The notes beneath the pieces are model-generated. The model was not told the origin of the DNA. It saw nothing but the letters and a program-made list of their open reading frames with translations, and ran no database searches. A program made the position numbers and the translations under genes. From Cyanophora paradoxa CCMP329 (lineage: Eukaryota; Plantae; Glaucophyta): a stretch of 64,000 nt of DNA. The DNA is taken from assembly GCA_004431415.1 (NCBI GenBank), contig QPMI01000626.1, forward strand, positions 186,001 to 250,000, given 5' to 3'. Below, one piece after another: positions 33,801-62,100 of this stretch. Numbering within the stretch: the stretch's first letter is position 1; the number at the start of each line of letters is the position of its first letter.

Positions 33801-33806
33801 CCCGCG
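33801..33806 (+). other. 6-bp target-site duplication CCCGCG (second copy at 58361-58366)
   Basis: The same hexamer directly flanks both TIRs; 6-bp TSDs are typical of rve-integrase Polintons. Confidence 0.92.
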
Positions 33807-34712
33807 GCTCGCGGGGTGGACACCCCCACCAATTCCCGCGACCATTTTCAATAAGCACATTTTCAGCATCACGAATCTCAGTCACAAAATCACAAATTCG
33901 CACTGAGCCACATTGTATTTTTCAAACATCTAACTCCTCCTTACTGAAACCAATCACAAAAACCTACATATAATCTTCTCTCTAATCCCTTACCATTTTC
34001 AGTAAGCCTTTATTCCGCCTTCCGATCTCTCAGTAAGGACAGTAAGACCCCTATTTTTACGAAATGTTCCCGATCGTTTCCAAACTGTTTTCAGTTACCC
34101 AAATTGAAAAATCAAGGTGACCCCCACCGATAGCGTAAATCAACATATGAAATGCGTTTATCCCCACTTAAAGATTTCCCGCTATATAGCTATAAAGATG
34201 CCGAGCAATCAACTCCCACTACCCAAAAGTAAGCAATGCACTATCTGCAAAGTAGATAGACCTGCATCGTGTTTTGGTTTGCGTAAATTAAAAACTGGTA
34301 ATGTCGCATTGAATCCAAGATGCATCGAGTGCAACCGCGACTATCACCTTGACCTGTATCACAAAGTCTTAAAAACGCGTCCGAAAATCGAAGTACAATC
34401 GAAGATATGCCCGGATTGCAAGATTGAGAAGCCTGCAAGCGAGTATAATAAAAAGCAAAGTACGAAGGATGGTCTCTACTATAAATGCCGACAGTGTTAT
34501 AGTGAGACTCGGACGAGCTAATTTATGATTTTAAAATGAGATTTATATTTTTTAAAGCAAGTTTGTGCATGAGCAAGCATGCCGAAAATGCCCACCTGCA
34601 CAAACTTGCGCACCCCATCGACAAAGTACGATGATCGACGAAGTACGACGATAGACCACGATTAATCGCAACTGGAACCACTCGCGCCCCGCCCACTATG
34701 CAAGATACATGC
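33807..34712 (+). repeat. Left terminal inverted repeat (906 bp)
   Basis: Begins GCTCGCGGGGTGGACACCCC and ends CAAGATACATGC; reverse complement of 57455-58360. Paired coordinates sum to 92167 at both ends and for the internal ORF, so there is no net indel. Confidence 0.96.
34198..34521 (+). CDS. TIR-encoded tandem C4 zinc-finger protein (left copy)
   Basis: ATG preceded by TATAAAG; two CxxC-K..(K/R)PAS..-CxxC units (CTIC...CIEC and CPDC...CRQC). Confidence 0.75.
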   Translation: MPSNQLPLPKSKQCTICKVDRPASCFGLRKLKTGNVALNPRCIECNRDYHLDLYHKVLKTRPKIEVQSKICPDCKIEKPASEYNKKQSTKDGLYYKCRQCYSETRTS

Positions 34713-42939: not shown

Positions 42940-44433
42940 ATGAAGACCGTTCTCGCTTTGAGTGGAGGGGGGTCGCGTGGAATAATCGAGGCTGCTATAC
43001 TGGCACAGATTGAAGCCCAAACCGGTAAACGAATCCAACAGCTATTCGACTGCTTTGCGGGAACATCCACAGGTGGATTAATCGCGCTCCTATTGAATAT
43101 CAAGGGAACCGATGGCGCCCCTAAATATACAGCCACTGATATTCTGGCGCTATACAAAGCAAAGCTACCGCTGATTTTCGCGAATCCACGAGTGCTTACA
43201 TCGATTGTACAGCGCCCAAAGTACGAAGCAACTAACTTAGAAGCGGTGGCTCTCGAACTCTGCGGCTCAGCGACCATGGCGGATCTCTATAAACCCACCA
43301 TCGTGACTGCGTTCGACACGGTCTTAATGTCCCCCGTTTTTATTTCAAGCAACGATGAAGATATTAATGGGATGCTTGTGCGCGATGCTGCAAGGGCTAC
43401 CTCGGCTGCTCCGACCTATTTCGAGCCGAAACAAGTCACAGTCGCCGGAAGAACATACTGTTTAATTGATGGTTGCATGAGTGGAAATAATTCGCCCGGG
43501 GTTTGCGGCTACACATTCGCCCGCACTTTATTCGGAAACTCTTGCGAGGAGGAGCTTATCGTGGTCTCGATTACGGCGGGTCACGTCCAAGACTCTGATA
43601 AGGCGACATCTGGATATTCGTACGACACTATGAAAAATTGGGGGATCGTGCAATGGATGCTAAGCGCCACAGGATCGCCAATTCTCAGCATGTTCTTAGA
43701 GTCGAGTGATCTAAACGCCCACGTAAAGCTACTGGAACTTTTACCCAGAAACGATGATCAGAATTACGATCGCTACTATAAGCTGAGCGTTCCTTTACCG
43801 AAAGATAAAATGACCCTCGATACTATCACAACGACGCACTTGCAATATTTAGAAACGGAAGCGCTCGCCTTTGTTTCCGCACAGCAAACGTATTTTAATG
43901 CGATGTATTCAGTGCTGACAATGAATTTATCAGAGGGCGACGTTCCCATAATTAATCTGTCCGGGTGCACAGATGTAAGCGCACCCCCGGAGTCCAACTG
44001 GGTGCCGCTCGATAATAGCGCTTTTATTGCGGAATTCGGGACAGCCTCCAATGCCCGCTGGTCGAATGCTACGGGGTGGGTGGGATTTACCAACCCGCCG
44101 CAAGGTAGTAGGTCGGGAGGCAATTATTTACGCATCGATTTTCCGCGTCTGTTTATGCTTTCCTCTATAAAAATGAAGCCGGCTGCGAATGGAAACTACA
44201 TTAAAACGTTTGAGATCGATTACCAATTAACTCCGGGAGTGTCGGCACTTGTCACATACACAGAAGCCGGCGCGACGAGAGTGTTTACCAATGCAAATCA
44301 AATAGCCGGAAGTGCCGATCCTGACGAACATTTCTTAGCGAACCCGAGATCTGTGAGAACCCTCGTAATCTGGGTGCTCACGACGAACGTAGCTTCGGCA
44401 TGCCGAATAGATTTCGAGGGCTACTATGTGTGA
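42940..44433 (+). CDS. Patatin-like phospholipase fused to a C-terminal discoidin (F5/8 type C)-like domain
   Basis: LSGGGSRG oxyanion loop, GTSTG nucleophile, ATSAAPTYF and IDG(C); C-terminus YLRIDF...YIKTFEIDY...P..VRTL.I...CRIDFEG fits the FA58C fold. Confidence 0.92.
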   Translation: MKTVLALSGGGSRGIIEAAILAQIEAQTGKRIQQLFDCFAGTSTGGLIALLLNIKGTDGAPKYTATDILALYKAKLPLIFANPRVLTSIVQRPKYEATNLEAVALELCGSATMADLYKPTIVTAFDTVLMSPVFISSNDEDINGMLVRDAARATSAAPTYFEPKQVTVAGRTYCLIDGCMSGNNSPGVCGYTFARTLFGNSCEEELIVVSITAGHVQDSDKATSGYSYDTMKNWGIVQWMLSATGSPILSMFLESSDLNAHVKLLELLPRNDDQNYDRYYKLSVPLPKDKMTLDTITTTHLQYLETEALAFVSAQQTYFNAMYSVLTMNLSEGDVPIINLSGCTDVSAPPESNWVPLDNSAFIAEFGTASNARWSNATGWVGFTNPPQGSRSGGNYLRIDFPRLFMLSSIKMKPAANGNYIKTFEIDYQLTPGVSALVTYTEAGATRVFTNANQIAGSADPDEHFLANPRSVRTLVIWVLTTNVASACRIDFEGYYV

Positions 44434-44439
44434 CAGCGC

Positions 44440-45285
44440 TTAATCGGTGATCACTTCGAGCTGGAACGAGTATGAGAGACCGTTTATATCTGCAACAGAG
44501 CCCCGCCATTTTCGAAGCGAAATTGTGAGACGATCTAAATCGAGTTGCGATGTGACATTTACGAAAGGGATGCTTGCGCTCGGTTCGTGGTAAAAGGAAT
44601 ATCTACCAAAGTCCGAGTTCATCTGAATTCGCAATAGATAGGAGTCGTCGAAATTGTTCTGTCTCCCAGTAACCGCTGCGAATTTGGTAAACGGGCGGAG
44701 CTCTTCGATATCAAGGTAAATATATGGAATTGCATTAAAGTCGACCATTTTCGGGCATATAATCGCGTAGCGACTGGGGTAATCTCTGAGTGGAACCGGC
44801 ACTGGTTCTGGTGTGCTGGCGTAAACCACTCCGGGTTCTATGCCGAGACAGTCACAGAACTCCTGGTCTGAGGACTCTAATGTAAAAGGGCTATTCGGAG
44901 ATGAGAACACGAAGCGGTTCGTAGACAGAGCGAGAGAATAGGAAACCGGGAAGAGACCGAGAGGATTAAAAGAACCGCCTGAAAAACCGAGTAAAGCATC
45001 ACTGTTTAAAGCTCTCTCTTTCGGATATCGTTCGTTATCAGCATCGACGTAATAATAATCGTTTACGCTGGGAATCGGTGCTATCATTTTGGATGCGGGG
45101 ATTACTGTGGGCTCTTCGTTCAAAAGCGTTATAGTTATTGTCTGATCGGGCGGAACAACATAAGAGCTATTGGGAATCTCAGCTGATAGCACACGAAATC
45201 GCCTTACATTATTAAGGCGCGTTTTCAAGTGCAGCACGCCGTTTTCAAGGTCTCTACTGTCGCAATTTATTGTTATTCTTTTCAT
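44440..45285 (-). CDS. Minor capsid (penton-like) protein 1
   Basis: I..DSRD...L..V....L.SAEIPNS.Y; YIYLDIEEL; LDRLTISLR...G...DINGL..SF.LE, the pattern of PLV/NCLDV single-jelly-roll pentons; next to the MCP. Confidence 0.8.
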   Translation of the reverse strand: MKRITINCDSRDLENGVLHLKTRLNNVRRFRVLSAEIPNSSYVVPPDQTITITLLNEEPTVIPASKMIAPIPSVNDYYYVDADNERYPKERALNSDALLGFSGGSFNPLGLFPVSYSLALSTNRFVFSSPNSPFTLESSDQEFCDCLGIEPGVVYASTPEPVPVPLRDYPSRYAIICPKMVDFNAIPYIYLDIEELRPFTKFAAVTGRQNNFDDSYLLRIQMNSDFGRYSFYHEPSASIPFVNVTSQLDLDRLTISLRKWRGSVADINGLSYSFQLEVITD

Positions 45286-45301
45286 AATCTATTATAGTAA
45301 G

Positions 45302-46226
45302 ATGAAAGAATACCTGAGCTTTTCGAGCGATGATCGCGATGAGGAGTTTACTCAGCCAAACCAGTATGTAGTGACATTACCCCGTCGCTATGACAACGTA
45401 AAATCGGTGCGCCTGGTGCAGGCAACGGTTCCCAATGTTCTTTCGACCGTGACAAACGATATAGACGCCACTGGTGCAACCATCGAGCGCATGGAACTCT
45501 ATTTCTCGGTCACAGCTTCGGATTCCGGATTCGTGACCATCACAATCCCCAAAGGATTTTACACCAAAGACGACCTTGCCGCAAAAGTCACAGAAAGACT
45601 CGAAGCAGCTCGCCTTTCAGATTTCGGTGGAAAATATATTAAATGCCGCTATAATACTACTTCAAAGATCTATGAGTTTTTCAGTGATAGTAACTTTTGG
45701 TTCAAGTTCTCCAAAGCTTCCCTGAAACACTCAGAAAATCCAGTAATCGCAAAGCAATCGCTAAGAAACTCGCAATATTCGGTTTCAAAGATATTCAGCT
45801 ATATGTTTACGAGACATTTACCCCTTTTGCAAGCGATACATTCCTTGTGTTTAATCCTGGGACGGGAACTGTGACACTCAATCGACGCATTCGCGGCTAT
45901 ACTCGTGGAGATGAGACCCCGGCGGCGATGATCTGGCTATATATTGATGAATTTGCGCCGTTTATTCGCTCAGTCAACAAGCACGTCGATGGTTATTTCA
46001 TGCGCATTCCAATCCCACAGGAACTCGAACATGGTGATATCTACCACTTCGACACGTCCACTACGGTGCCTCTCATTCGTGAATTCCGCGAATTAAAATC
46101 TTTCGACCGCCTCACGATTAAACTCATCGACCATGATGGCGCTCTCTTAGATTTCGGGTTTGGGCGCATTATTTCACTTTTGAAATCGAAACCTACGACG
46201 CACCGCCCGAAATGAATTTCTATTGA
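45302..46226 (+). CDS. Minor capsid (penton-like) protein 2 (frameshifts near 45751 and 46162)
   Basis: SSDDRD...PNQYVVTLPRRYDNVKSVRL..A.VPN; GFYT; IWLYIDEF; FDRLTIKLIDHDG.LLDF; the restored end reads GAHYFTFEIETY...NFY*. Confidence 0.78.
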
Positions 46227-46273: not shown

Positions 46274-47586
46274 ATGGAGACTAACAGCCAATTCCAGCGC
46301 CCAACGCTGAAATCTATGCTCACCACCGATGACTACAAGGATTATTTCCTAAACAAGTCGCTGGTCATTGGAACGTCCTCTGGCACTAAGCCACTTCGAG
46401 TTCTGGTCGCCCCCGACACTGAGCCACCCAGCGCTCTCGGCAACCGAGTTGTCTTCAAAATCCCCGCTACCATTTCCTGAATGGTCTCGCGCTGCAACTC
46501 GATCTTAACCCGATCACCCTCACTGATCTCACGAATGGTGTCGCTGGAACTACTGGCTACCTTCGCGTTATTGGATCGCTAATTAAGCGCATTGAAATCT
46601 CTCACGCTTCATTCCGCTATGTTGTCCCAGAGGATTTCGTCACCCAGTATTTTCTACTGATGACCGAACAGGGCGAACTCGATAAGAAACTTCGCTATGT
46701 GGGTGGTCTTGTCGGAACCGCTGGTAACACTGTCGGTGGAACCTACGAAATCGATTTACCCTCTCCTTTCGAGAAGGCGATGTTCCCACTTTGCGCTCTG
46801 AACTCTGAGATCGTGGTCGAAATCGAATTCAAGGCGATTGGTGATGGTATCATTGAGGATGTAAACAATGTTGGCAATATTTCGGTCGTAAACAGTGGTG
46901 CTTCCCTTCAAGTGCTGAAACCCCGCATTATCTGCAAGGTCGTAAATGCCGATGAGGCGGTTGTATCTGAGACCATTGCCCGTGTTAAATCGACTGGTAT
47001 CGCGATCCCCTACAACGAAATCGGTTTCCTCCACACAGATTTCCAGCCGACCGCCTCCGGTTCGCGAGTCAATCTCTCGCAACTCACAGGTGCGGGTCTC
47101 ATCCACACTCTCGTATTCTCTGTGCGCCAAAACGCGAAGACGAAGGTGAACAACGGAACTCTCTCGGTTCTGGCTCCTCGTGCACTCCGAACCAACGCTG
47201 TGAACTTCTATGTGGAACTCAACAATAACCGCCTTTACTCGAATACTTCGCTTCCTCTCATGATTGCCGCGACCGAACTTCAAGATAAATATAATTCGGC
47301 GATCTTTACCGAGAGCACAAGCTACCCCGCTCTCACTGGCATTTACTTCGGTGCTGGAAACGGAAAGGCGTCGCTTCTCAACCAAGAGAACACGGGCTAC
47401 ATCGATGCCACAGGCACATCGGCGTTCGATCTGGTCTTCGAATTCAATGGTGTCACAGCCGGTGGAGTCGGTAATGAGGAGTGGTATGCGGGTGCCGCTT
47501 ATCAGAAGATGCAAATTCAGTGCATTGCCCTCGCTCATAATATCATGATAATCGGAGCTGATGGTATTCGCAGAGTAAGTAGCTAA
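46274..47586 (+). CDS. Major capsid protein, double jelly-roll (frameshift in the C-run at 46462-46465)
   Basis: Adding one C gives GNRVVFKIPRYHFLNGLALQLDL...LIKRIEI, continuing into ORF 46660-47586 (FPLCALNSEIVVEIEF); about 437 aa; lies between the pentons and the ATPase. Confidence 0.85.
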
Positions 47587-47644: not shown

Positions 47645-48510
47645 ATGCAAAAAGGGACAACGCCCATGGATCTCGAAGAATGGAACCCGAAACAGAGGGT
47701 GAAACTTCCCGCACGATTTCTCCTATTGGCGAAAACCAATTGTGGTAAATCGGTATTCTTAAAGTGGCTGATCAAAGAACTCGAAGACCAGATCTCATAC
47801 GTTCTGGTCTTTTGTCCAACGAGTTTCAACGGTTTCTGGGGACAAATTACAGACGAAGTGCATGACACCTGGAAACCGGAATATGTAGAGTCGATCATAG
47901 AAGCCCGCAAAAAGCCATCATTGCGGGTAAGAAACCAAAGAATATTCTCATCGTGCTCGACGATTGTTTGGAGTCCGGAACTATCGATCTTTCGCGCGAT
48001 CATTTGCTAAATAAATTGATGGCGCAAGGTCGTCATACGTTTTGTTCCGTGGCTCTAATATCGCAGAAACTAACAAAGCTTTCAACGATCATTCGCAGCA
48101 ATGCGGAGTATATCATATTCCTAAGCTGGTCAAACATGCGAGAGTTTGAAGCATATCACGAAGAGTTCGGGAACATGGATAAAGAGAGTTTTAAGCGCAT
48201 GTTCCAAGAATTCTGTCATAGCTACCAAGCGATCATTCACGATAATACCGGGTATTCTGTGCGATGGTGGGTCGAAAAAGCCGATATGATCGATGACCAT
48301 CCGTTTACTAAATTCCACAAGCGGGCGGCTTTTGAAGAAAAGAAGCGCAAACAACAAGAGGAGCAAGCGACAAAACCGCCGCCTGTCAAAGATTCGACAA
48401 CTGTCTGTCGAACTTTATCCAAATTTGAGCGTGAGCTTGAAGGTATCCCCAAACTTTCGCAAATTTCGCCTAAGAAAAAGAAAATGTTAATCAAATGTAA
48501 GAGAAGATAA
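47645..48510 (+). CDS. A32/FtsK-like genome-packaging ATPase (frameshift in the A-run at 47909-47913)
   Basis: Walker A AKTNCGKS, Walker B ILIVLDD after the frame is restored, GRH motif, SQ sensor and IRSN. Confidence 0.92.
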
Positions 48511-48512
48511 TC

Positions 48513-49959: not shown

Positions 49960-50373
49960 ATGGCGAAACCCAAGATTTCAAACCAAGAGGCAATGGCGGC
50001 ACAGCAAGAAAAGCGCAGACCAGGGCGACCGAAGAAGGTGATCACAGAAGAGGAGAAAGCGGAGAGATTAAGACTAAAACGCGAGAAAGATGCAGAGCGG
50101 CAGCGAAACAAGCATCAGAGACAAAAGCAAGAGCGATTAGCCGCCGGAGAGGCTACTATATTCACACCGGAACAGCTACAAAAGATCGCAATTCGTAAAC
50201 AGCAGCGATACCAAGACGATGAAGAGTATCGGGAGAAAATCCGAGAGAAGGCACGTGAATACCAACGAAGGAAAAGAGCGGAACGCAAGCTGAATCCGCC
50301 GGTGAAGCCCCAGCCGCAAAAGCCCGCTGGAAGACCCCGAAAGCATGTCGTCGAGAACGCAAAAACTTCGTAG
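49960..50373 (+). CDS. Basic AT-hook and coiled-coil DNA-binding protein
   Basis: KRRPGRPKK and KPAGRPRK AT-hooks flank an R/K/E-rich helix. Confidence 0.75.
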   Translation: MAKPKISNQEAMAAQQEKRRPGRPKKVITEEEKAERLRLKREKDAERQRNKHQRQKQERLAAGEATIFTPEQLQKIAIRKQQRYQDDEEYREKIREKAREYQRRKRAERKLNPPVKPQPQKPAGRPRKHVVENAKTS

Positions 50374-50498
50374 CGGAAAGTACCGTACGATGCAAAAAAT
50401 GATTAATTTTTTACCTCCATTTTTATTCCCCGTATCGGTCAAAAAATCACATCGGTCATATTTCGGTGAGTGTGTTGCGAAGCTTTGCTCTGGCGAAA

Positions 50499-53400
50499 AT
50501 GGATACAATGTCTCAAATTATAATTAGACCGGGTCAAGTTCGTCATGATTGGCATGAGAGCGAATCAATCTTCTATTTACTCAAATACTACCATGAATTG
50601 GCAGTAGGACTTAAAACTTTCGGCCAAGCATACGAGGTGTTCTTCTATAAGACACCACCAACCCAGGAACAGAAAAGACTAATCCAAATATTTGATGATC
50701 TTGGCGGCAGTATCGATGATGCCTTTATAACTGTTCATGAGGTCGTGATCGATGGGGACGAAGGTGTCGAAGATGACGGAGCCGGTGCTATCCCTGGCAA
50801 TCGCTATGCGTTTCTGGATGAGGAGCTTACGGACAGCATGCGATGCACCGCGATTATGAGCAAATTCACAGACTACACATTAAATCCAAACGCGTCTGAG
50901 TTCGAAGATATTATTGAGCTTCCCAAATCATCGACATCTAACGCTTGCGGCTACGATATGATCATCTCCACATGGGGAGCGTCCATTAAGAAGTGTCAGG
51001 AGGCGCCAAAACCGCGATATACTGACTTAACTATGTCGTACGACGGTCTCTATAAATTCTTTCACGGTCGTGAACGCACACCTGGCGACTCTCTGGCTCT
51101 CACGCTCCGCCACATCGAGAAATTCTGTAAGAGAATTCAGACAGGCTTCCGCGTCTTTGATGTCGACGGAAAGTTAATACACAAATTCGCGGCGGAATCA
51201 ATTAACAAAAACATCTTTCCCCGCAATATTCACTTTATGATTCACAACAAGCACATCTATATATTCAACGATAACATCAAGTCGCTCGAAATGCGCATGG
51301 CAAAGATGGAGGTCGAAGAGCTCGATAATCATGTTCCTAAGTCGAACTCTTCGTTAGCACTCTATAAAATTCCGACGTGTCTTACTCACGATATCTTCGC
51401 GCACACATCCAAGGATTTGTTAAAGATCACGCAACTTAAACTATCGCCCGACGAGCGCAGTTTCATCCGCATTCTGTATACTGGGCGCGAAGGTCTGGAA
51501 GGTCTTCTATTTACGTTCCTGAAAATGCGATATGAACCCGCAGTGAAGCTAACACCATCGAAACAGATCGACAGCATCACATTCAAAGCTAATGGCTCGA
51601 TGTTCTCTATCAAAGATCCACGCACAACAGACCACTTTATTGAGCAAGATTTCGAAACAGAGGAGTATTATAATAAGGTCTGTGAAATCGGGAAGGGATT
51701 CCGCGAGTCGCTTCTAAATGCGACGAATATCTCACATTACAGCCCGAACATGCGCGAAATTCTCACGCACTACAAGCGATCCGCACTAAGCGGCTTTTTC
51801 TATAAGCCGAACCCGAAAGCTACCTACACAGCTGTCGATATGGCGAAGTGCTACCCTTCGATACTGAAAGGCATGCAATATCTTCCGAAATACAATGTGT
51901 TTGATGACTTCGTTCCCTTTAAAGCGGGAAGCGATATTCTCGAATACGCGATCTACTACGTGCGTGTCGTTGCGTTTGAGAGAGAGCAAGCGACTTTCGC
52001 CGACGATGAGGATGTAGATTATGATGCCGCCATGTCTCGCAAGATTGATGGAATCGAAATTATTCTGGATCGCGCATTTTCCGTGAGTGGTCGCTGTTAT
52101 AATTTCATGACAGGCTACACTCTCTCCATGCACTGGGCGGACGTAAAGGACAAGATAGAGATTATCGCGGTCGCGGAGCCTTCGCATTTGGTGCCCAATA
52201 TGTCGATCGCTGAGATGAAGAAAGTGCTTTCAAGTGACATTCAAACCACGGACAAGAAACACATTTTAGTGAAAGAGATCGGAATGCTCGGCAAATTCCA
52301 AGACTCGCAAACATCCACGAAAATGTTCTACAACCGTGCCGAGGCTGAGAGGTTCGCCCAAGAATGCGGAGGAACAGTAGAGGTGTTTACTTTCAATCCT
52401 AAGAATTCGAAACGTGTCAAAACTCTTAGCGAATTCGAAGGTCACATCTATTTCGTTAAGATCAGCTCCCACCGCGAGCTCGTTAACGGATTCCTTCCTA
52501 TCCACTTTCATATTTACGATCGTAACCGCGCTAATATGTTTGCGCAATACAAGCGCCTGACAGCGCGCGGGCACAAGGTTGCCGGGATCAGAACGGACTG
52601 TCTTTATATCGAAGGTTCATGGACAAGTAAGAAAGAGTTCGACCGAAATGCGTTTGAGAACATGGGCAAATTCAGCTATATTCCCGGGAAAAGATGCCCT
52701 GAGAATGCACTCCGCCCACCACGGGGTGTAACTCTCGAATTTCAGGATCCCGAGACACTCATTAACCGGTTCTCGCTGAGGGACGAATTTAATCCGGAGT
52801 GCTTTAATTGGGTTGCGAAGCTCCATAATCGTATGCTTGTCCTTGCTGACATGCCCGGAAGTGGAAAGTCGACACTCGGTATTAACTGTTTCGCATCTCA
52901 AAAGTCAAATTGCTTAGTCATTTGCCCCTATAACAAACAGTGCGCAGAGCTAAGGGACTCTCTCAAAGTCCGCGGAATCGAGAATATTACCGTTCGCACT
53001 TTGTATAATGTTCTCGGGATCCGTGTCTCAAATGATCAGACCTACGAAGAGGCTATGAGCGAAAAAGACCAGAGGGCGTTCGTATCTGAGTTCAGCCACA
53101 TTATGTTCGACGAGATATTTGCGTATTCCGTAAAAGATCTCGCTAAGATCAAGTCGTTTATCGATCGCTATCCGGATATCAAATATTTGGCTAATGGCGA
53201 TACCTATCAGAACGAACCGATTAATGATGAGCTATCGGTTTCTGATCGCAAGGGCTACTATAAGCGCGCTGTGCAGAGCATGTTCCCTAACGTCCTGAGT
53301 CTACGCATTAACAAGCGGCACAAGAAGGAGACAGACCGTGAATTAATTCGGGCGATTAAAGAGGATCTCTTCGAGAACGGACTGGAAGCCGCACAGATTA

Positions 53401-54206
53401 TCTCGAAATACGGGTTGCCGACAATTAATGATCTAAGCGCCATTCCCGACGGCTACTTTGGCATCGCTTACAGAAACGAAATGACCTTAGCCTATAACAA
53501 ACTGATGCACGATAGACGAAAAGTAAATATTGCAACCGTAGAGGTCAACGGCATCAAATTCTACAAGGGTTTGGAGGTCGTTTGTCGCAGGTATCTACGC
53601 ATTTCGCGGTCTGAGGGTGAGTCTATTAACGCATACACGAATTACACCTATCGAATCACCAAAATCACCAAGCAAATGGTCACATTAACTGACGTTTTCG
53701 ATGGCGTCACGTTCGAGGTTCCGTGCGCGATGTTAGAACATTTTTCTCTCCCTTATGCAGGAACAGGTCATTCAACGCAAGGTCTCACACTTGATTCGGG
53801 CATTGTCATTTGTGAGGCTACGTTCCGCTATACCACTCGCGAATGGTTCTATACCGCGCTCACTCGTAACCGCGATCTGTCTACTGTGCTGATTTATACA
53901 CCGATTCACAAGTTCCAAGGAAAGAGTGACTACATCGAGTATCTGAAAGGGAAGATCCGCGGTTACAAATGCCAGGATCAGCGTGCCGGGCGCGATTTCG
54001 ATGAGGCGGATTATATTACGCCGGAGTGGATATTAGAGCGCAAGAAGCAACAGAAGGGCGCCTGTGCGCTCTGTTCCCTTCCTATTCCGACTGAGCCACA
54101 AGATCCGAATTACAAGCTCGTCGTGGATCGCATAAACAACAGGCGCCCACATCTTAAAGACAATTGCCAGCTCGTGCATCACGGGTGCAATTGCAGCAAA
54201 AAATAA
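50499..54206 (+). CDS. pPolB-like DNA polymerase fused to an SF1 (RecD/Pif1/Dda-like) helicase and a C-terminal HNH-like domain
   Basis: PolB motif A DMAKCYPSIL, degenerate motif B K...V..IGMLGK, motif C GIRTDC; helicase MPGSGKST, FDE, GD.YQN.PI, H.TQG.T and YTALTR; C-terminal CALC...DRINN...H..DN...CN. The start may be 50499 or 50508. Confidence 0.88.
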   Translation: MDTMSQIIIRPGQVRHDWHESESIFYLLKYYHELAVGLKTFGQAYEVFFYKTPPTQEQKRLIQIFDDLGGSIDDAFITVHEVVIDGDEGVEDDGAGAIPGNRYAFLDEELTDSMRCTAIMSKFTDYTLNPNASEFEDIIELPKSSTSNACGYDMIISTWGASIKKCQEAPKPRYTDLTMSYDGLYKFFHGRERTPGDSLALTLRHIEKFCKRIQTGFRVFDVDGKLIHKFAAESINKNIFPRNIHFMIHNKHIYIFNDNIKSLEMRMAKMEVEELDNHVPKSNSSLALYKIPTCLTHDIFAHTSKDLLKITQLKLSPDERSFIRILYTGREGLEGLLFTFLKMRYEPAVKLTPSKQIDSITFKANGSMFSIKDPRTTDHFIEQDFETEEYYNKVCEIGKGFRESLLNATNISHYSPNMREILTHYKRSALSGFFYKPNPKATYTAVDMAKCYPSILKGMQYLPKYNVFDDFVPFKAGSDILEYAIYYVRVVAFEREQATFADDEDVDYDAAMSRKIDGIEIILDRAFSVSGRCYNFMTGYTLSMHWADVKDKIEIIAVAEPSHLVPNMSIAEMKKVLSSDIQTTDKKHILVKEIGMLGKFQDSQTSTKMFYNRAEAERFAQECGGTVEVFTFNPKNSKRVKTLSEFEGHIYFVKISSHRELVNGFLPIHFHIYDRNRANMFAQYKRLTARGHKVAGIRTDCLYIEGSWTSKKEFDRNAFENMGKFSYIPGKRCPENALRPPRGVTLEFQDPETLINRFSLRDEFNPECFNWVAKLHNRMLVLADMPGSGKSTLGINCFASQKSNCLVICPYNKQCAELRDSLKVRGIENITVRTLYNVLGIRVSNDQTYEEAMSEKDQRAFVSEFSHIMFDEIFAYSVKDLAKIKSFIDRYPDIKYLANGDTYQNEPINDELSVSDRKGYYKRAVQSMFPNVLSLRINKRHKKETDRELIRAIKEDLFENGLEAAQIISKYGLPTINDLSAIPDGYFGIAYRNEMTLAYNKLMHDRRKVNIATVEVNGIKFYKGLEVVCRRYLRISRSEGESINAYTNYTYRITKITKQMVTLTDVFDGVTFEVPCAMLEHFSLPYAGTGHSTQGLTLDSGIVICEATFRYTTREWFYTALTRNRDLSTVLIYTPIHKFQGKSDYIEYLKGKIRGYKCQDQRAGRDFDEADYITPEWILERKKQQKGACALCSLPIPTEPQDPNYKLVVDRINNRRPHLKDNCQLVHHGCNCSKK

Positions 54207-54398
54207 ACAGGTTTAATTAGAAGAATGTCACGGATCGTTAGAAGGGTAGCGGCGAGGAGACAGAGACCACCATACTACCTATCGCGGTTCCTGAAACTGA
54301 GCAAGTCCCCAAAAAATCACAAAACGCCAAGCAAAATCAAATTTATTAGGAGATGTTCCTTTTAGCATTGCTAACCGTCCTCTAAGATCGTGCGCCGC

Positions 54399-55603
54399 AT
54401 GTATGACCCAAAAACAGGTTTTAAGAACCCATCGGCATTGTACGAAGAGCTGAGAAAAGAGGACAAGACCCTCACACTGAAAGAAGTGCAAGATGTCGCA
54501 GCGAAACAAGAATTTATGCAGATCAACAAGAAGCCCCCGCACCGACCCAAACAGCTTTTATTCCCATCACAGCCCCGCCGTGGTGCTATCAAGCGGATCT
54601 CATCTTTTATCTCTCATATGGCAATTATAATTCCGGCTACATTGCAGTCCTTACTCTCATCGAGATGACAAGCCGAAAAGCATATGCCAAGAAGTTAAAG
54701 AATAAGGAGGGCGCAAGTGTTGCCGCCGCTTTTGCGGAGATGCTCACAGAGCTCCCGGCTCCGATGATTCGATTGGAGACAGATAACGGTTCGGAATTCA
54801 TCGCGAAGGAGTTTCAGGAGGTCGTAAAAAATAATGGAATAGAGCACCGCTTTAAACAGGTCGGAGATCACACTTCTCTGGGAATAATGAATCGCTTTCA
54901 TTTGACCTTAAAAACGATGATAAACAATTACTGTGTCGCTTATAATACAGTTCGATTCATGGACAAATTGGACGACTTCGTTTTCAATTATAATAACACC
55001 ATTCACAGAACCATAGGAATGAAACCCGCAGATGTTAAGCTTTCTGATATGGAGCGGATCCGAGCGGCTATTATTTCAAAGAAGAACACAATCGTAAAGG
55101 ATATATTCAGCGACTTTAAGCCGGGTCTCCACGTCCGTGTATTATTGCCAAGATCAAAGTTTGATAAAGGAGCAACACAAAGGTATAGCAGAGAGGTCTA
55201 CAAAATTGCGGGAAGGAGAGGAAACGCGATAGAGGTGCAAGATGCAGCGGGGAACGTAATGCCGAAGCTTTTTAAGCCGCACGAATTGCAAATCATTACA
55301 GAGGTCGAAGCTGTGGTGGAGCCATCAGGCAACGCAATCAAAGCAGCCGAAATAGAAGCCGCTTCTATCCGGCAGGTTCAAAAAGAAGGCATAGATGTCG
55401 CCGCAAGTGTTCCAAAAGGCGCATTATTGGAAGATCGCGCAGAAAAGACAAAGAGGGCGCTGAGAGAGCTCGCTAAATTAACGATCGCGGGAACTGAGAA
55501 GCTCTCAGAGGTAAACAGTCAGCGGTGGTATAAATCATTCAAGAATCAGAGCGCAAGCTACACAGCCCCTACTACGCGCATTCTTCGGTCTTCTCGTTCA
55601 TAA
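54399..55603 (+). CDS. Retroviral-type (rve) integrase, Polinton c-INT-like (frameshift near 54549; the start may extend to 54225)
   Basis: YDPK.GF N-terminus; restored YQADLI...LTLIEMTSRKAYA; TDNGSEF; GIMNRFHLTLK; YNNTIHRTIGMKP; SH3-like tail G.HVR...FDKG...YS.EVY.I. Confidence 0.92.
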
Positions 55604-55642
55604 CAAACCCCGAAATTATTTTCTCCGGTAAATATAAAAGAG

Positions 55643-55956
55643 ATGGAGGGTGAAAGTATTATGTTGATATTCCGTTTGATAAAAAAGACGTTGCGAAATC
55701 CCTCGGTGGAAAGTGGGATCGTGAGAATTCATGCTGGTATGTCATGAAGAAAGATCACCCCCTATGCTCTCAGTTCAAAACTCTAAGCTATGAGCAAGTG
55801 TATCAAAGAAACGTGAAGGTTTACCTCGATATTCCTTATGAATTTAAGGATCAAGCGAAGGCTGAGAGAGCCCGCTGGGATCCCGTTATGAAATCCTGGT
55901 ATGTCATGGGTCTCGATCACCCGCTAATGGGCAAGTTTCCGATCAAGGAGCATTAA
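55643..55956 (+). CDS. Tandem DUF5710-like protein (frameshift near 55653)
   Basis: Two copies of Y.DIP(F/Y)..KD.AK....(K/R)WD....WYV. Confidence 0.8.
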
Positions 55957-55981
55957 ATATATCTGTCGTTTTTTTCATTTT

Positions 55982-56374
55982 TTATGAAATTGGGAACCTT
56001 TGCTCGACCTGTAAGTCCCACTTTCGCACTTTCAGCCTTTCCTGTATGAGATCGTTAATGTCCTGTGCTATACCCATTGTCTTCGCTTCGGCATTTGAGC
56101 CGCATGTAAAGATATCGATCGCTAATAGCCCCTGGTCGCTATAAGAGTGAGCTGTGGCATGCGACTCATCTAATAGAAAGCCAATCGCGAAACCGGGAGG
56201 GGAAATAGAGCCATCGAAAATGCAAGTGTGCTGGTGCACGATGCGCATATTGCGATCTGTGATATATTGCGATAGGTTCGCTGTGATCCACTCGGCGCAT
56301 GCCTCCGGGGACTCGTTGAACGGGTCGGTTATATAGTCGAGCATAACGTGGTAGCCGCGGTATCGGGAATCCAT
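55982..56374 (-). CDS. speD: Prokaryotic-type S-adenosylmethionine decarboxylase proenzyme (pyruvoyl-dependent)
   Basis: G.H.MLD, LLDESH self-cleavage site, H(S)Y and AIDIFTCG; 130 aa. Confidence 0.9.
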   Translation of the reverse strand: MDSRYRGYHVMLDYITDPFNESPEACAEWITANLSQYITDRNMRIVHQHTCIFDGSISPPGFAIGFLLDESHATAHSYSDQGLLAIDIFTCGSNAEAKTMGIAQDINDLIQERLKVRKWDLQVEQRFPIS

Positions 56375-56849
56375 TATTATTTAAGTCGATATTTTTGTGA
56401 GCTATGTGGTTTCGTAGCCGCCAAATCGCGCCCTTTGCGAATCAGACCGCGCCACTTCGTAGTAGTGTAGAACTACTCTATACGCGCGCGGATGCAAAGT
56501 ATGACTAGTGGAGCCCTCCGGGAACGCGCGCCGGCGCTCAGAATGTAGCGGACACCTCCGTTTTCGGGCACTTGTGCAGAAATCGAAGTCGGTCTTTGCT
56601 CCACGGTAGGCTAAGCTAGTCAAAGCATAACCATCATGCCCGGAAGCAAGTTACGAGCACGTAGCAATTGAGAGCGCGCCGAGATCGGCTTCCTGTCCAA
56701 AGTTATGCCCGGAAAACGGAAGGGGGGTCGCCGCCGAGTCGCGATCGCGGTGTTATGGTAAATCAAAGCCGGCGGCTATTATGCTTCTAACTGAGAATTT
56801 GAAAGGTATAACAGACCTACTATAAGGCTTAGTTTCGGCGTAGTTTACG

Positions 56850-57120
56850 TAATGTCGGTTGACAGCGTGATACTGTCGCATAATGTCGGCTGACAGCGTG
56901 ATACTGTCGCATAATGTCGGCTGACAGCGTGATACTGTCGCATAATGTCGGCTGACAGCATCATTTTATTTGCATAATGTCGGCTGACAGCATCATGTTA
57001 TCCCCATAATATCGGCTGACAGCGTGATACTGTCGCATCATGTCGGCTGACAGCATCATGTTATCCCCATAATATCGGCTGACAGCGTGATACTGTCGCA
57101 TCATGTCGGCTGACAGCATC
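56850..57120 (+). repeat. Array of about 9 palindromic 31/32-bp repeats, just inside the right TIR
   Basis: Core T(G/A)TCGGCTGACAGC followed by GTGATACTGTCGCA, ATCATGTTATCCCCA or ATCATTTTATTTGCA. Confidence 0.92.
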
Positions 57121-57454
57121 GACCTGCGAACGAAGGTGCCTGCGGGAGCTGCGTAGGCGAGATCTCACCTATCACATTACGATCAGCCATAGAGTTTATC
57201 ACATTACGATCAGACAACGTAAAAATACTACGCTATCGCATGCTATATGTTTTCGGAATCGCCGCGATGTGATGACCCCGAATATGTCGGTGACGCCGGT
57301 GTATATATGTATATGTCGTGATATGCGAAAAAAAACAAAAAAAACACAAAAAAAGCAAAGTTGTGCGGGATCACACACACGGAGGTTCGGACATATATAC
57401 GAAATATATACATGACTAAATCGTTATTGTTTTCATAGAACTCGCATGTAGTTT

Positions 57455-58360
57455 GCATGTATCTTGCATAGTGGGCGGGGCGCGAGTGGTTCCAGTTGCG
57501 ATTAATCGTGGTCTATCGTCGTACTTCGTCGATCATCGTACTTTGTCGATGGGGTGCGCAAGTTTGTGCAGGTGGGCATTTTCGGCATGCTTGCTCATGC
57601 ACAAACTTGCTTTAAAAAATATAAATCTCATTTTAAAATCATAAATTAGCTCGTCCGAGTCTCACTATAACACTGTCGGCATTTATAGTAGAGACCATCC
57701 TTCGTACTTTGCTTTTTATTATACTCGCTTGCAGGCTTCTCAATCTTGCAATCCGGGCATATCTTCGATTGTACTTCGATTTTCGGACGCGTTTTTAAGA
57801 CTTTGTGATACAGGTCAAGGTGATAGTCGCGGTTGCACTCGATGCATCTTGGATTCAATGCGACATTACCAGTTTTTAATTTACGCAAACCAAAACACGA
57901 TGCAGGTCTATCTACTTTGCAGATAGTGCATTGCTTACTTTTGGGTAGTGGGAGTTGATTGCTCGGCATCTTTATAGCTATATAGCGGGAAATCTTTAAG
58001 TGGGGATAAACGCATTTCATATGTTGATTTACGCTATCGGTGGGGGTCACCTTGATTTTTCAATTTGGGTAACTGAAAACAGTTTGGAAACGATCGGGAA
58101 CATTTCGTAAAAATAGGGGTCTTACTGTCCTTACTGAGAGATCGGAAGGCGGAATAAAGGCTTACTGAAAATGGTAAGGGATTAGAGAGAAGATTATATG
58201 TAGGTTTTTGTGATTGGTTTCAGTAAGGAGGAGTTAGATGTTTGAAAAATACAATGTGGCTCAGTGCGAATTTGTGATTTTGTGACTGAGATTCGTGATG
58301 CTGAAAATGTGCTTATTGAAAATGGTCGCGGGAATTGGTGGGGGTGTCCACCCCGCGAGC
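57455..58360 (-). repeat. Right terminal inverted repeat (906 bp)
   Basis: Reverse complement of 33807-34712; ends ...CCACCCCGCGAGC. Confidence 0.96.
57646..57969 (-). CDS. TIR-encoded tandem C4 zinc-finger protein (right copy)
   Basis: Identical translation to 34198-34521. Confidence 0.75.
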   Translation of the reverse strand: MPSNQLPLPKSKQCTICKVDRPASCFGLRKLKTGNVALNPRCIECNRDYHLDLYHKVLKTRPKIEVQSKICPDCKIEKPASEYNKKQSTKDGLYYKCRQCYSETRTS

Positions 58361-59109
58361 CCCGCGCGACCGAGCGCGCGACTCAACGACTCTGCAAAAA
58401 CGCGTACCTGAAGCTCACTGCGGCTGTGCGGACTGACTCGTGCACCGGCAGCGCGGCCAGGAGGCCCAGGGGCGAGGGCCGGTCAATCTCGAGCCGACGA
58501 GGGTGGGGGAAGGAGCCGGGTCGGGGTGCGACATAATTTCGGGCAGCGGTCGTCGCGGATATTATTCAAGCACGCGCAGAACCCCTGGCAGAACCAGTTC
58601 AAGCAGGAGCGGTCAGGCCAAATTTGCCTGGCCGGCGCTGGGCCGCAGAGCCCGCTGTAAAGCTGCACGGCACTCTGGCATTGCGGACTCGGATTCTTTT
58701 GCTGGCTCACTTAAGCGAGCCACACAAAGGCGCAAAACTGCTGTACAAGAAAAAAGTCAAAACCAGAGGTTAATCGATGGAGAAGACTCGGTCGCCGGGC
58801 CGGGCGAGACGGAGACGGCTGCGACGCCCCCTATAGTAAAGAGAGGCTGAATAATTAATTATAATGATGTCTGAAACACTAACGTCAGAGACGCAAGAAG
58901 TACCTGTGAAACTAATGCGGGCAAGCGAGAAATTTTGAAGCAAATCAAGCAAGGAACCTGGGGACTGCGGGACACACGCAACAGGAAGCTGTCGACTACC
59001 GCACACGAAACGAAGCCGAGATCTAGACCCCCGAAAAATCCGAAGCGGCCAAGCAATTCTCCCCCGTGGTATCCTTTGCCCCCCCCCCCCACCCCCTAGA
59101 CGGCGACTG

Positions 59110-62100
59110 CTAGCTGGTGCGAGAAAGGCGGGGGGTACAGCCTACAGTCCCGCGTAGTTGGCAGGCACGGCGGGCCGCTGGCTCCCCCCGGCGACTCCCC
59201 CCTGCGGAGCCCTGCAGAAATAATCGAAAGAGCCTAAGAACATAAAAAAGGGGAGCTGGATGGATGGCGCGGGGGTACCGGAGCGTCGCGAGGACGGACG
59301 AGATGACGTCATCGTCGAGTCCCAGCGTGAAGTCCATGTGGCCCATCTTGGGGAAGACCTGCGGCGGGGGGGGGGGTACGCATTCAGGGCGAGCCCGTGG
59401 GCGGCTGGGGCGGCGAAGGGGGTACACGGACGCGGAGGCGCGCGAGCTCGGGGTGGTGCTTCGAGAGGTACTCGTAGTGCCAGCGCGCGTCCTCCTGCGC
59501 AGGGGGGAGAAGCTGAGGGGGGTACGGGAAAACTGGGCTGAGAGCGAGGGGTACCACGGAGATCAGCCAGTCCTTCTCCCCCGCCAGAATGTCGACGGGG
59601 ACGTCGATCCTGGAGAGGTGGGGTACAAGATCATTCGGGAGTACAGGGACCGAAGAAGGGGGGGGGGGTAGGCGCACAGGTGGTACAGGCGGTCGAAGTT
59701 AAGGGGCTCCTTGGAGCCGTACTCCTTCAGGTTGCGCTTCGCCCCGAAGTCGTACGCCTGGGTTACAGGGTTAGAGAGAGGAAATTCGGGGTACGCAGGA
59801 GTCGGAAAGCAAAGAAAGCGAAGAGGAGAGGAAAGGGTGTCAGATTAAAACGGTGAAATCTCGACCCCAAGGAAGAGAGGTGGCCACGGGAGGGGCCCGC
59901 CCCTCTTAGTGATAGGGACAGTGCTCTGCGGAGCGATATGCTGCCAGGAGAATCAAGGGAGCTCAGCGCCCGGCTCTCAACGCCCGCAAAAAACAGCTGC
60001 CGCTTGCTAAGAATGCTGGCCCTAAGGAAGAGAGGTGGCCACGGGAGGGGCCCGCCCCTTTAGTGATAGGGACAGTGCTCTGCGGAGCGATATGCTGCCA
60101 GGAGAATCAAGGGAGCTCAGCGCCCGGCTCTCAACGCCCGCAAAAAACAGCTGCAGCGTGCTAAGAATGCTGGCCCTAAGGAAGAGAGGGGGCCACGGGA
60201 GGGGCCCGCCCCTCTTAGTGATAGGGACAGTGCTCTGCGGAGCGATATGCTGCCAGGAGAATCAAGGGAGCTCAGCGCCCGGCTCTCAACGCCCGCAAAA
60301 AACAGCTGCCGCTTGCTAAGAATGCTGGCCCTAAGGAAGAGAGGGGGCCACGGGAGGGGCCCGCCCCTCTTAGTGATAGGGACAGTGCTCTGCGGAGCGA
60401 TATGCTGCCAGGAGAATCAAGGGAGCTCAGCGCCCGGCTCTCAACGCCCGCAAAAAACAGCTGCAGCGTGCTAAGAATGCTGGCCCTAAGGAAGAGAGGG
60501 GGCCACGGGAGGGGCCCGCCCCTCTTAGTGATAGGGACACGATGCTCTGCGGAGCGATATGCTGCCAGGAGAATCAAGGGAGCTCAGCGCCCGGCTCTCA
60601 ACGCCCGCAAAAAACAGCTGCCGCGTGCTAAGAATGCTGGCCCTAAGGAAGAGAGGGGGCCACGGGAGGGGCCCGCCCCTCTTAGTGATAGGGACAGTGC
60701 TCTGCGGAGCGATATGCTGCCATGAGAATCAAGGGAGCTCAGCGCCCGGCTCTCAACGCCCGCAAAAAACAGCTGCCGCGTGCTAAGAATGCTGGCCCTA
60801 AGGAAGAGAGGGGGCCACGGGAGGGGCCCGCCCCTCTTAGTGATAGGGACAGTGCTCTGCGGAGCGATATGCTGCCATGAGAATCAAGGGAGCTCAGCGC
60901 CCGGCTCTCAACGCCCGCAAAAAACAGCTGCCGCGTGCTAAGAATGCTGGCCCTAAGGAAGAGAGGGGGCCACGGGAGGGGCCCGCCCCTCTTAGTGATA
61001 GGGACACGATGCTCTGCGGAGCGATATGCTGCCAGGAGAATCAAGGGAGCTCAGCGCCCGGCTCTCAACGCCCGCGAAAAACAGCTGCCGCGTGCTAAGA
61101 ATGCTGGCCCTAAGGAAGAGAGGGGGCCACGGGAGGGGCCCGCCCCTCTTAGTGATAGGGACAGTGCTCTGCGGAGCGATATGCTGCCAGGAGAATCAAG
61201 GGAGCTCAGCGCCCGGCTCTCAACGCCCGCGAAAAACGAGAGAAGAATCGGAAACAGAAGCTCGAAGGAGGAAACGAAACGAACGACGATACAAAGAAGA
61301 AGACGGGGGGTACCTGGAAGCGGTTGGAGCGCAGGATCTGGCAGCCGTGCCGGAAGACCTGCGGTACCCCCGTAAACACATCAGGCTGCGCCTCAGAAAA
61401 GAAGGGCGGCGGGGCCGACGCAGGGCGGCGAGGGCTGCAAGTGGCCGGGAGGCCTGGGAGAAGGGTGGCGGGGGAGGGATGGGCCGGGGCAGGCGCGCGC
61501 ACCCGGGAGGAGGGGGAGGAGTTCTGGTAGGAGAGCCAGTCGATGTGCCGGAAGGGCGAGCTCTGCGTGCGCCCCGCGTCAGAAACGAGACGAAGGCGCG
61601 AGCTTTGAAGGGCGAAGGTGCTGGGGAAAGGAATGCATCTAGGCGTCGTCGTCGTCGGGAGGCGTGCGCGTGCATCCCTCCGGTTTGGGAATGCGCCTAG
61701 GAATCGTCTAGGAACCGCCTAGGAAAGGCGCGAGCTCTGGAGGGGGAAGGTGCGAGGGGAAGAGAGAATGCGCCTGGCTCTACCTTCTAGGAATTCGTCT
61801 AGGAACGTCTAGGAACGGCCCGGCCCGGGGATCTGGCGCGCCTGCATCTCGCCGCTCAGAAAACGTCTAGGGGCCGCCCAGGAATTCATTAAAAGTGCGC
61901 CTAGGAACCGCCCAGGAATCTATCTGGCGGGCCTGCATCTCGCCTGGCTCTAGGAATGCGCTTGCATCTCGCCGCTCTAGGAATGCGCCTAGAAATGCGC
62001 CTAGGAATGCGACTAGGAACGGCCCGGCTTGGGGACCCGGCGCGCCTGCATCTCGCCGCGGAGGAACAAGGCGCCTAGGAATGTGCCTAGCTCCTCCTCC

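What the first reader, a model, noticed from the sequence alone, without database searches (positions are those of the whole stretch)
55982..56374. Stand-alone prokaryotic-type SAM decarboxylase in a small integrating virus
Seen: an intact 130-aa SpeD-like ORF (ESH cleavage site, DIFTCG) and no spermidine synthase in the element. Established: AdoMetDC converts SAM to dcSAM, dcSAM inhibits methyltransferases, and some homologues decarboxylate arginine or ornithine instead. Inference: it either boosts polyamines for genome condensation or drains SAM to blunt host methylation silencing of the provirus, by analogy with phage SAM lyases.
Basis: partly seen in the sequence, partly recalled or inferred. 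Interest (0 to 1): 0.85.

Follow-up and report, generated by a model that had tools for sequence, protein, structure and literature searches.

The report
Small algal virus's likely arginine decarboxylase
A small virus integrated in a microbial eukaryote's genome carries an intact gene that looks like a SAM decarboxylase but groups with relatives that act on arginine, so it likely makes agmatine, a polyamine precursor, rather than draining SAM to escape silencing.

Summary
The ORF is real. It is an intact 130-aa class 1b SpeD-fold gene with all three self-processing residues (S71/H76/C91). It lies in a 24,554-bp Polinton-like element with 906-bp perfect inverted repeats and a 6-bp target duplication, and no other polyamine gene was found there. 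It is probably not a SAM decarboxylase. It carries D-ESH...HSYS and a 4-residue loop insertion, like the marine-archaeal subfamily that lies beside SpeY (20 of 20 sampled loci), an agmatine-consuming enzyme. Same-taxon, same-synteny members are published arginine decarboxylases (SpeDA). It scores 107.5 bits on that subfamily's profile and 42.3 on canonical AdoMetDC; three tested AdoMetDCs score the other way. The SAM-drain idea is therefore poorly supported. Its closest relatives with known context are in giant viruses. Seven other PLV-like contigs carry the same subfamily, and a single PLV origin is rejected (p-AU 6e-6). AdoMet_dc in PLVs is already tallied, without comment, in a 2025 supplementary table (138 of 5,817). 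Limits: no assay, tested SpeDA sequences not retrieved, and AU tests did not reject grouping with canonical SpeD. New member of a known kind; interest 0.5.

The parts
55982..56374 (-). SpeD-fold pyruvoyl decarboxylase proenzyme, 130 aa, SpeDA (arginine decarboxylase)-type subfamily
56162..56170 (-). Codons for D69-E70-S71: predicted self-cleavage site E70/S71 (S71 = T. maritima S63, becomes pyruvoyl). D69 is the subfamily-specific acid
   Evidence: alignment to 1tlu/2iii; D in 137 of 138 motif occurrences among the 150 hits
56102..56149 (-). H76 to C91 (= T. maritima H68, C83), processing/catalytic residues; S79 in place of the Pro of W-P-E
33801..33806 (.). left 6-bp target-site duplication
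33807..34712 (+). left terminal inverted repeat (906 bp; holds a 124-aa Cys-rich ORF)
57455..58360 (-). right terminal inverted repeat, identical to the left
58361..58366 (.). right 6-bp target-site duplication
55654..55956 (+). tandem DUF5710 ORF, convergent with the decarboxylase gene
   Evidence: 84 bits
54425..55603 (+). rve integrase frame (its 5' part lies in another frame in this assembly)
   Evidence: PF00665 51.5 bits
50499..54206 (+). 1235-aa replication protein with a C-terminal SF1-helicase-like part; an N-terminal PolB-like part is recognised only by eye, not by Pfam
   Evidence: helicase hits below cut-off; no PolB hit
47645..48510 (+). A32-type packaging ATPase, in two frames here
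   Evidence: PLV ATPase profile E 1.9e-12
46423..47586 (+). putative major capsid protein, assigned by position only; not confirmed
   Evidence: no family hit; single-sequence fold pLDDT 33
44440..45874 (.). two minor-capsid-like ORFs (44440-45285 -, 45164-45874 +)
   Evidence: weak: PLV mCP profile E 0.02 and 0.003; DUF5901 E 0.006
42940..44433 (+). patatin-like phospholipase with a C-terminal domain that looks discoidin-like by eye (no Pfam hit)
56848..57154 (+). 31-32-bp tandem repeat array between the decarboxylase gene's 5' side and the right TIR
   Evidence: (D16)

Best explanation
The gene is an intact SpeD-fold proenzyme in an integrated Polinton-like virus that is predicted to cleave itself at Glu70-Ser71 and likely decarboxylates L-arginine to agmatine, not SAM, which would feed the host's polyamine pathway during virus replication. 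Shown: the ORF, fold, catalytic residues, subfamily signature, the subfamily's link to SpeY, and its presence in several PLV lineages and in giant viruses. Inferred: (1) self-processing to a pyruvoyl enzyme, from conserved S/H/C; (2) arginine as substrate, from subfamily membership, with Asp69 possibly pairing with the basic side chain; (3) host enzymes turn agmatine into putrescine and higher polyamines, since the element has no downstream enzyme, as proposed for pelagiphage ADCs; (4) capture from a giant virus, because the closest relatives with known context are giant-virus genes.
For: Subfamily signature: among the 150 best phmmer hits, 137 matched the motif pattern (138 occurrences; 13 did not match). 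137 of 138 have D (1 N) before the E/K-S-H cleavage motif, and 0 of 138 have the W-P-E proline. Among 28 top canonical archaeal loci, the 25 with a parsed motif all have A/S/G there and all have Pro. Genomic context: the best 80 of 485 prokaryotic matches are all archaeal MAGs, mostly titled Poseidoniales/Marine Group II. 79 of 80 have SpeY within 3 kb and 29 of 80 a ureohydrolase (78 and 29 by phmmer). I also took 20 of the 77 PF02675 matches from a 151-genome phylum sample, chosen by Pfam score 56-72 bits and not by likeness to the query. All 20 are D-ESH, 20 of 20 lie beside SpeY and 16 of 20 beside a ureohydrolase, against 0 of 28 canonical loci. 16 of 28 canonical loci instead have an aminopropyltransferase neighbour (one hand-picked neighbour each). 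0 of 5 such MGII genomes have spermidine synthase (MAGs may be incomplete). Fusions to ureohydrolase (P0038) and SpeY/DHS (P0043, P0049, P0064) occur in the subfamily. Literature: speB-speD-speY homologues from Poseidoniales, MGII/III, Gimesia, Solirubrobacter, Nannochloropsis and Tribonema are arginine-only decarboxylases forming one clade (PMC10407285). All tested SpeY proteins couple agmatine (PMC13625781). Classification: window 107.5 bits on the SpeY-linked profile vs 42.3 canonical; tested AdoMetDCs S-PM2 46/129, phiYS40 34/69, P2559S 21/65. IQ-TREE nests it with MGII at 100/96 and 96/96. Origin: nearest relatives are 42-48% identical, and L147 lies beside an NCLDV capsid gene.
Against: No enzyme assay and no expression evidence. 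The assayed SpeDA accessions were not retrieved (searches showed only other DAC-series Poseidoniales proteins), so the link to them is by taxon, gene order and the paper's clade description. AU tests did not reject holding the window protein with canonical AdoMetDCs: p 0.10 on the careful tree, and 0.44 on a quick tree after dropping 3 long branches post hoc; only 139 columns. The missing proline is not decisive: the tested AdoMetDC of phiYS40 also lacks it, and I could not see Fig. 8 to tell which Pro the paper means. The protein is only 40-50% identical to the archaeal members, and substrate switches are frequent in this fold (PMC10407285). None of 22 viral loci has SpeY or a ureohydrolase, and the host's agmatine-catabolic genes could not be searched (no genome held). 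The sister position to giant-virus genes has weak support (85/51).
Confidence: 0.68

Rival explanations
1. It is a true AdoMetDC that supplies dcSAM to the host's spermidine synthase, like the stand-alone speD of cyanophages.
For: Fold and Pfam family. Class 1b AdoMetDCs of eukaryotic viruses (HaV01, Yellowstone Lake phycodnavirus 2) are tested and true (PMC9992855). AU tests did not reject grouping with canonical SpeD. phiYS40 shows the Pro is dispensable.
Against: Below the TIGR03330 cut-off. BLAST bits 88-101 to MGII members vs 30-36 to three tested AdoMetDCs (the MGII set was selected by likeness). Profile score 107.5 vs 42.3. The subfamily sits beside SpeY in archaea, and 0 of 5 such genomes have spermidine synthase.
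Confidence: 0.1
2. One reading: it drains SAM or builds up dcSAM to blunt host methylation silencing of the provirus.
For: 5mC silencing of viral insertions is reported in protists (titles and abstract starts only). Element CpG o/e is 1.15, i.e. no depletion, but the flanks are similar (0.93-1.10), so this does not discriminate.
Against: It requires AdoMetDC activity, which the classification disfavours. PLV-like contigs with the same gene encode SAM-using enzymes: Methyltransf_24 in L226 (61 bits), SET in L018 (34 bits) and an EcoRI-methylase-like ORF next door in L017 (22.5 bits, below cut-off). A silenced provirus would also not express its own anti-silencer (inference).
Confidence: 0.04
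3. It is an ornithine (or Arg/Orn dual) decarboxylase making putrescine directly, which would suit a eukaryotic host better.
For: An acidic residue at position 69 is shared with SpeDC-type sequences (Glu in L144, L145). Phage SpeD homologues with ODC or dual activity exist (PMC9992855).
Against: It lacks the SpeDC diagnostic Gln/Thr/Phe/Tyr (has F66/E70/S77/A85; columns inferred). It scores only 22-24 BLAST bits against SpeDC-like sequences and HTVC201P. The two eukaryotic members tested in this clade were Arg-only.
Confidence: 0.08
4. It is an arginine decarboxylase whose payoff is competitive: it depletes arginine or floods the cell with agmatine to hinder a co-infecting giant virus or rival elements, rather than feeding polyamines.
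For: No downstream enzyme in any of 22 viral loci. PLVs are described as antiviral defence elements (PMC12220804, abstract start). Repeated capture.
Against: Giant viruses carry the same subfamily themselves, which suggests it helps replication. Tested members are slow (kcat/Km 20-180 for this clade). No direct evidence.
Confidence: 0.1

Closest known systems
SpeDA clade 1 arginine decarboxylases (Poseidoniales DAC51064, MGII/III AIF02979, Gimesia maris, Solirubrobacter, Nannochloropsis, Tribonema; PMC10407285)
   Same: Same fold and catalytic triad; same subfamily as the speB-speD-speY-linked Poseidoniales proteins by motif, profile and tree.
   Different: Virus-encoded and stand-alone, with no SpeY/SpeB partner; 40-50% identical to archaeal members; not assayed.
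Pelagiphage HTVC201P SpeD-derived arginine decarboxylase (PMC9992855)
   Same: Viral, stand-alone SpeD homologue predicted to make agmatine and to rely on host enzymes downstream.
   Different: Separate origin (20% identity, 24 bits; T-S-H site); bacteriophage rather than eukaryotic virus.
Class 1b AdoMetDC (T. maritima 1TLU, A. aeolicus 2III; S-PM2, phiYS40, P2559S, HaV01)
   Same: Fold (TMq 0.69-0.76) and the S63/H68/C83 equivalents.
   Different: D instead of A/S/G before E-S-H, H-S-Y-S instead of H-T-W-P, a 4-aa loop insertion; profile score far lower.
Chlorovirus PBCV-1 arginine decarboxylase (ODC-fold; PMC9992855)
   Same: A eukaryotic algal virus that makes agmatine from arginine.
   Different: PLP-dependent, unrelated fold, comes with AIH/NCPAH/HSS in a large genome; here a 130-aa cofactor-free enzyme alone in 24.5 kb.
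AdoMet_dc-bearing PLVs in Table S6 of PMC12220804
   Same: PF02675 is counted in PLVs of Glaucocystophyceae (66 of 156), Rhodomonas lacustris (45 of 706), Cryptomonas pyrenoidifera (17 of 57) and C. borealis (10 of 177).
   Different: Only a domain count. The main text has no hit for adenosyl, decarbox, AdoMet, polyamine or spermidine. Whether those copies are the same subfamily is untested.

Membership tests
Class 1b AdoMetDC-fold pyruvoyl decarboxylases | Single ~120-135-aa domain of the class 1b fold | tested here: met
   PF02675 45.2 > 25 bits; model pLDDT 96, top hits 2iii/1vr7/1tlu
Class 1b AdoMetDC-fold pyruvoyl decarboxylases | Ser, His, Cys equivalent to T. maritima S63, H68, C83 | tested here: met
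   S71, H76, C91
Class 1b AdoMetDC-fold pyruvoyl decarboxylases | Autocatalytic cleavage to a pyruvoyl enzyme | not testable with these tools
   needs protein
Bona fide AdoMetDC (SpeD) | Scores as TIGR03330 equivalog / closer to the canonical profile | tested here: not met
   49 < 75.65 bits; 42.3 vs 107.5 bits
Bona fide AdoMetDC (SpeD) | Conserved 'gamma' proline (PMC10407285 Fig. 8) | tested here: inconclusive
   W-P-E Pro is absent (S79), the P-x-G Pro is present; figure not visible; phiYS40 AdoMetDC also lacks the W-P-E Pro
Bona fide AdoMetDC (SpeD) | Excluded from the canonical group by phylogeny | tested here: inconclusive
   ML tree separates it at 100/96, but AU p 0.10 and 0.44
Bona fide AdoMetDC (SpeD) | Decarboxylates SAM / complements delta-speD | not testable with these tools
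   needs assay
SpeDA clade 1 (arginine decarboxylase) | Groups with Poseidoniales/MGII homologues | tested here: met
   nested at 96/96; profile 107.5 bits. The assayed accessions themselves were not retrieved
SpeDA clade 1 (arginine decarboxylase) | Cellular members lie with speY/speB and lack speE | tested here: met
   for relatives: 20 of 20 and 79 of 80 with SpeY; 0 of 5 genomes with PF01564. The viral gene itself has no such neighbour
SpeDA clade 1 (arginine decarboxylase) | Arg-only decarboxylation | not testable with these tools
   needs assay
SpeDC (ornithine decarboxylase) | Diagnostic Gln, Thr, Phe, Tyr in the core | tested here: not met
   F66, E70, S77, A85; column positions inferred
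Polinton-like virus / Maverick-type element | 14-40 kb, TIRs, 6-bp TSD with rve integrase | tested here: met
   24,554 bp, 906-bp TIRs, 6-bp TSD, PF00665; criteria from PMC12220804
Polinton-like virus / Maverick-type element | A32 packaging ATPase | tested here: met
Polinton-like virus / Maverick-type element | Double jelly-roll major capsid protein | tested here: inconclusive
   candidate at 46423-47586 has no family or profile hit and a poor model; only weak minor-capsid hits
Polinton-like virus / Maverick-type element | Protein-primed PolB (Maverick) or other replicase | tested here: inconclusive
   1235-aa ORF has sub-cut-off SF1 helicase hits and no PolB hit

The most novel reading that the evidence does not exclude
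Polinton-like viruses of algae have repeatedly taken a 130-aa arginine decarboxylase from giant viruses as their only metabolic gene and use it as a weapon in the PLV-giant virus conflict, draining arginine or piling up agmatine to jam the giant virus's polyamine and hypusine supply, a small-molecule form of virophage-like host defence.
Probability: 0.1. Interest if true: 0.8.

Novelty: new member of a known kind. Interest (0 to 1): 0.5.

Why it matters
Genomes of about 20 kb rarely spend space on metabolism. This gene recurs in several unrelated PLV lineages and in up to 42% of the PLVs of one algal class in a published table. If the reassignment holds, many 'SAM decarboxylase' annotations in PLVs and giant viruses are arginine decarboxylases. 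SpeDA would then extend to viruses of eukaryotes, which my searches did not find in print. It gives a cheap, testable handle on whether PLVs manipulate host polyamines and swap genes with giant viruses. It also removes the most exciting first reading (anti-methylation by SAM depletion) unless an assay says otherwise.

Tried and rejected
Word-based homologue and locus searches with the single protein found nothing; the phmmer scan and alignments did. The missing proline was rejected as a stand-alone diagnostic because phiYS40 also lacks it. AU tests against canonical SpeD were not significant. The assayed SpeDA accessions did not appear in three cluster look-ups. Two papers on substrate determinants and structure were not held, and a search for T. 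maritima substrate-contact residues found nothing, so the role of D69 is inference only. Capsid confirmation failed, and no close relatives of the capsid candidate or the replicase were found in viral contigs. Expression: no RNA holder listed. Two runs guessed to be RNA gave scattered depth-2-4 contigs, and none of their listed pieces lies in the ORF (list cut), which is no evidence either way. A gene-level variant table across runs was not obtained, so purifying selection is untested. CpG o/e did not discriminate. No host genome is held. No complex was predicted, since a textbook homodimer would pass by likeness. Earlier-findings look-ups returned nothing.

Full report
Observation. It passes Pfam AdoMet_dc (45.2 bits, cut-off 25) but not the TIGR03330 equivalog cut-off (49 vs 75.65). 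A model from a 32-sequence alignment is confident (pLDDT 96.3) and matches class 1b AdoMetDC structures best. S71, H76 and C91 align to T. maritima S63, H68 and C83, the residues needed for self-processing (PMC10407285 section 7).

Setting. The gene lies in a 24,554-bp, 45% GC element inside 66% GC flanks. The element has identical 906-bp terminal inverted repeats and a 6-bp target duplication. It encodes an rve integrase, an A32 ATPase, a helicase-like replicase, a patatin and minor-capsid-like ORFs. The major capsid protein is assigned by position only. No other polyamine enzyme was found in 80 frames of 75 aa or more. The 7-kb stretch 50000-57000 is held at a word share of about 0.6 by 18 of 24 listed runs, all of one coded organism. 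Contigs of two DNA-type runs cover all 30 bins of 45000-57400 in many variants. One 339-nt contig across the gene's 3' half differs by one letter and has no gap. Single-base indels against the contigs fall where the capsid-region and integrase ORFs are split, so those splits are probably assembly errors (tables cut). The host lineage is not shown. A glaucophyte is a reasonable guess, because patatin-discoidin fusions and AdoMet_dc are both reported in glaucophyte PLVs; the discoidin-like domain here is recognised by eye only.

What the enzyme is. Its 150 best relatives (of 294 at E<=0.001) form a distinct subfamily. 137 of them matched my motif pattern (138 occurrences): D precedes the cleavage motif in 137 and none has the W-P-E proline. 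A four-residue insertion precedes P-x-G. Canonical archaeal SpeDs show A/S/G and Pro in 25 of 25 parsed loci, out of 28. The best 80 of 485 prokaryotic loci are marine archaeal MAGs, mostly titled Poseidoniales/MGII, and 79 of 80 have a SpeY gene beside them. That set was chosen by likeness to the query, so I took 20 of 77 family matches from a 151-genome phylum sample by Pfam score alone. All 20 are D-ESH, all 20 lie beside SpeY and 16 beside a ureohydrolase, against 0 of 28 canonical loci. 16 of those 28 have an aminopropyltransferase as the neighbour I picked. Five MGII genomes tested lack spermidine synthase. This is the speB-speD-speY arrangement whose Poseidoniales, MGII/III and stramenopile members were assayed as arginine-only decarboxylases (PMC10407285). 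SpeY is now known to consume agmatine (PMC13625781). Profiles built without the window protein score it 107.5 (SpeY-linked) vs 42.3 (canonical), while three assayed phage AdoMetDCs score the reverse. The ML tree (70 rows, a hand-picked subset, 139 columns) nests it with MGII at 100/96 and 96/96. Some eukaryotic-type members are fused to PQ-loop domains; that some PQ-loop proteins carry basic amino acids is recalled, not tested.

Against this reading. AU tests did not reject holding it with canonical SpeD (p 0.10; p 0.44 without three long branches). The assayed phiYS40 AdoMetDC also lacks the proline, and the paper's figure defining the diagnostic proline is not visible. The assayed SpeDA proteins and the assayed eukaryotic-virus AdoMetDCs were not retrieved. 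Nothing was assayed here.

Distribution and origin. Two alignment scans of viral contigs gave 19 distinct loci. By neighbouring genes, 7 are PLV-like (L009, L011, L013, L014, L018 and L226 with A32 ATPase and minor-capsid-like genes; L017 with a D5 helicase and no capsid module in the stretch held), about 9 are giant-virus-like and 3 are phage-like (my labels). Four of the seven are one family (putative MCP 65-86% identical). All seven classify with the SpeY-linked profile. Holding the window gene and these seven in one clade is rejected (p-AU 5.8e-6), so PLVs gained it more than once. The closest relatives with known context (42-46%; L146-L148) are giant-virus genes, and L147 carries an NCLDV capsid gene. 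Branch support for that sisterhood is weak (85/51), so the direction of transfer is inferred. None of 22 viral loci has SpeY or a ureohydrolase.

How it likely works. The proenzyme would cleave at E70/S71 to give a pyruvoyl group, bind L-arginine as a Schiff base (D69 possibly holding the guanidinium; inference) and release agmatine. With no partner gene, the product would pass to host enzymes and raise putrescine and spermidine during replication, as proposed for pelagiphage ADCs (PMC9992855). I put arginine as substrate at about 0.78 and this whole account at 0.68. The SAM-drain idea needs the disfavoured activity, and three PLV-like carriers encode SAM-dependent enzymes, one of them below cut-off.

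Prior knowledge. Supplementary Table S6 of PMC12220804 already counts PF02675 in 138 of 5,817 endogenous PLVs (my sum of rows 1-19): glaucophytes 66 of 156, R. lacustris 45 of 706, C. pyrenoidifera 17 of 57, C. borealis 10 of 177, and 0 of 40 virophages. The main text does not discuss it. Paper searches pairing the enzyme or polyamines with polinton, PLV, virophage or giant virus found no report of SpeDA in a eukaryotic virus. Subscription papers and bioRxiv supplements are not covered and could bear on this.

Papers seen. PMC9992855: passages, plus a supplement search. PMC10407285: part 2 of 7, section 7, passages and the supplement text. PMC13625781: abstract and passages. PMC12220804: passages and supplement parts 33-34. 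PMC11633385, 10.1101/2025.06.17.660233 and 10.64898/2026.06.19.733378: passages only, nothing relevant. Others: search listings only.

Verdict. A real, intact gene with a probably wrong label: a likely arginine decarboxylase of a known clade, in a setting tallied but not interpreted before. New member of a known kind; interest 0.5.

Noticed in passing
window 3453-9143: A nested, near-perfect inverted duplication of about 2.6 kb per arm (repeats I2-I7 and I10) in the host flank; it may be a fold-back element or an assembly artefact.
   Followed up: no
window 59767-61309: Tandem array of about 155-bp units, 99% identical in part, about 1.4 kb right of the element.
   Followed up: no
window 25008-26234: 89% GC array with a period of about 40 bp.
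   Followed up: no
window 34147-34521 and 57646-58020: The terminal inverted repeats each carry the same 124-aa Cys-rich ORF with no Pfam hit.
   Followed up: no
window 36463-36786: 54-bp (18-aa) tandem repeat inside a 597-aa fibre-like ORF; a C1q-domain ORF lies at 35099-36067.
   Followed up: no
window 45000-57400: Contigs of two DNA-type runs show summed depth in the hundreds to thousands and several hundred variant sites, suggesting many copies of the element in this organism; no single-copy control was laid.
   Followed up: partly
P0004, P0011, P0014, P0327: Eukaryote-type members of the subfamily have an N-terminal membrane segment (PQ-loop by Pfam in P0004 and by source name in P0014); P0049 fuses it with an NNMT-type methyltransferase and a SpeY/DHS domain; P0023 with a SET domain.
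   Followed up: partly
L007:922-1305, L008:10440-10814: Giant-virus-like contigs with an ATG8 gene right next to the same decarboxylase subfamily.
   Followed up: no
L009:9502-10092: A PLV-like contig encoding a LicD-family protein.
   Followed up: no
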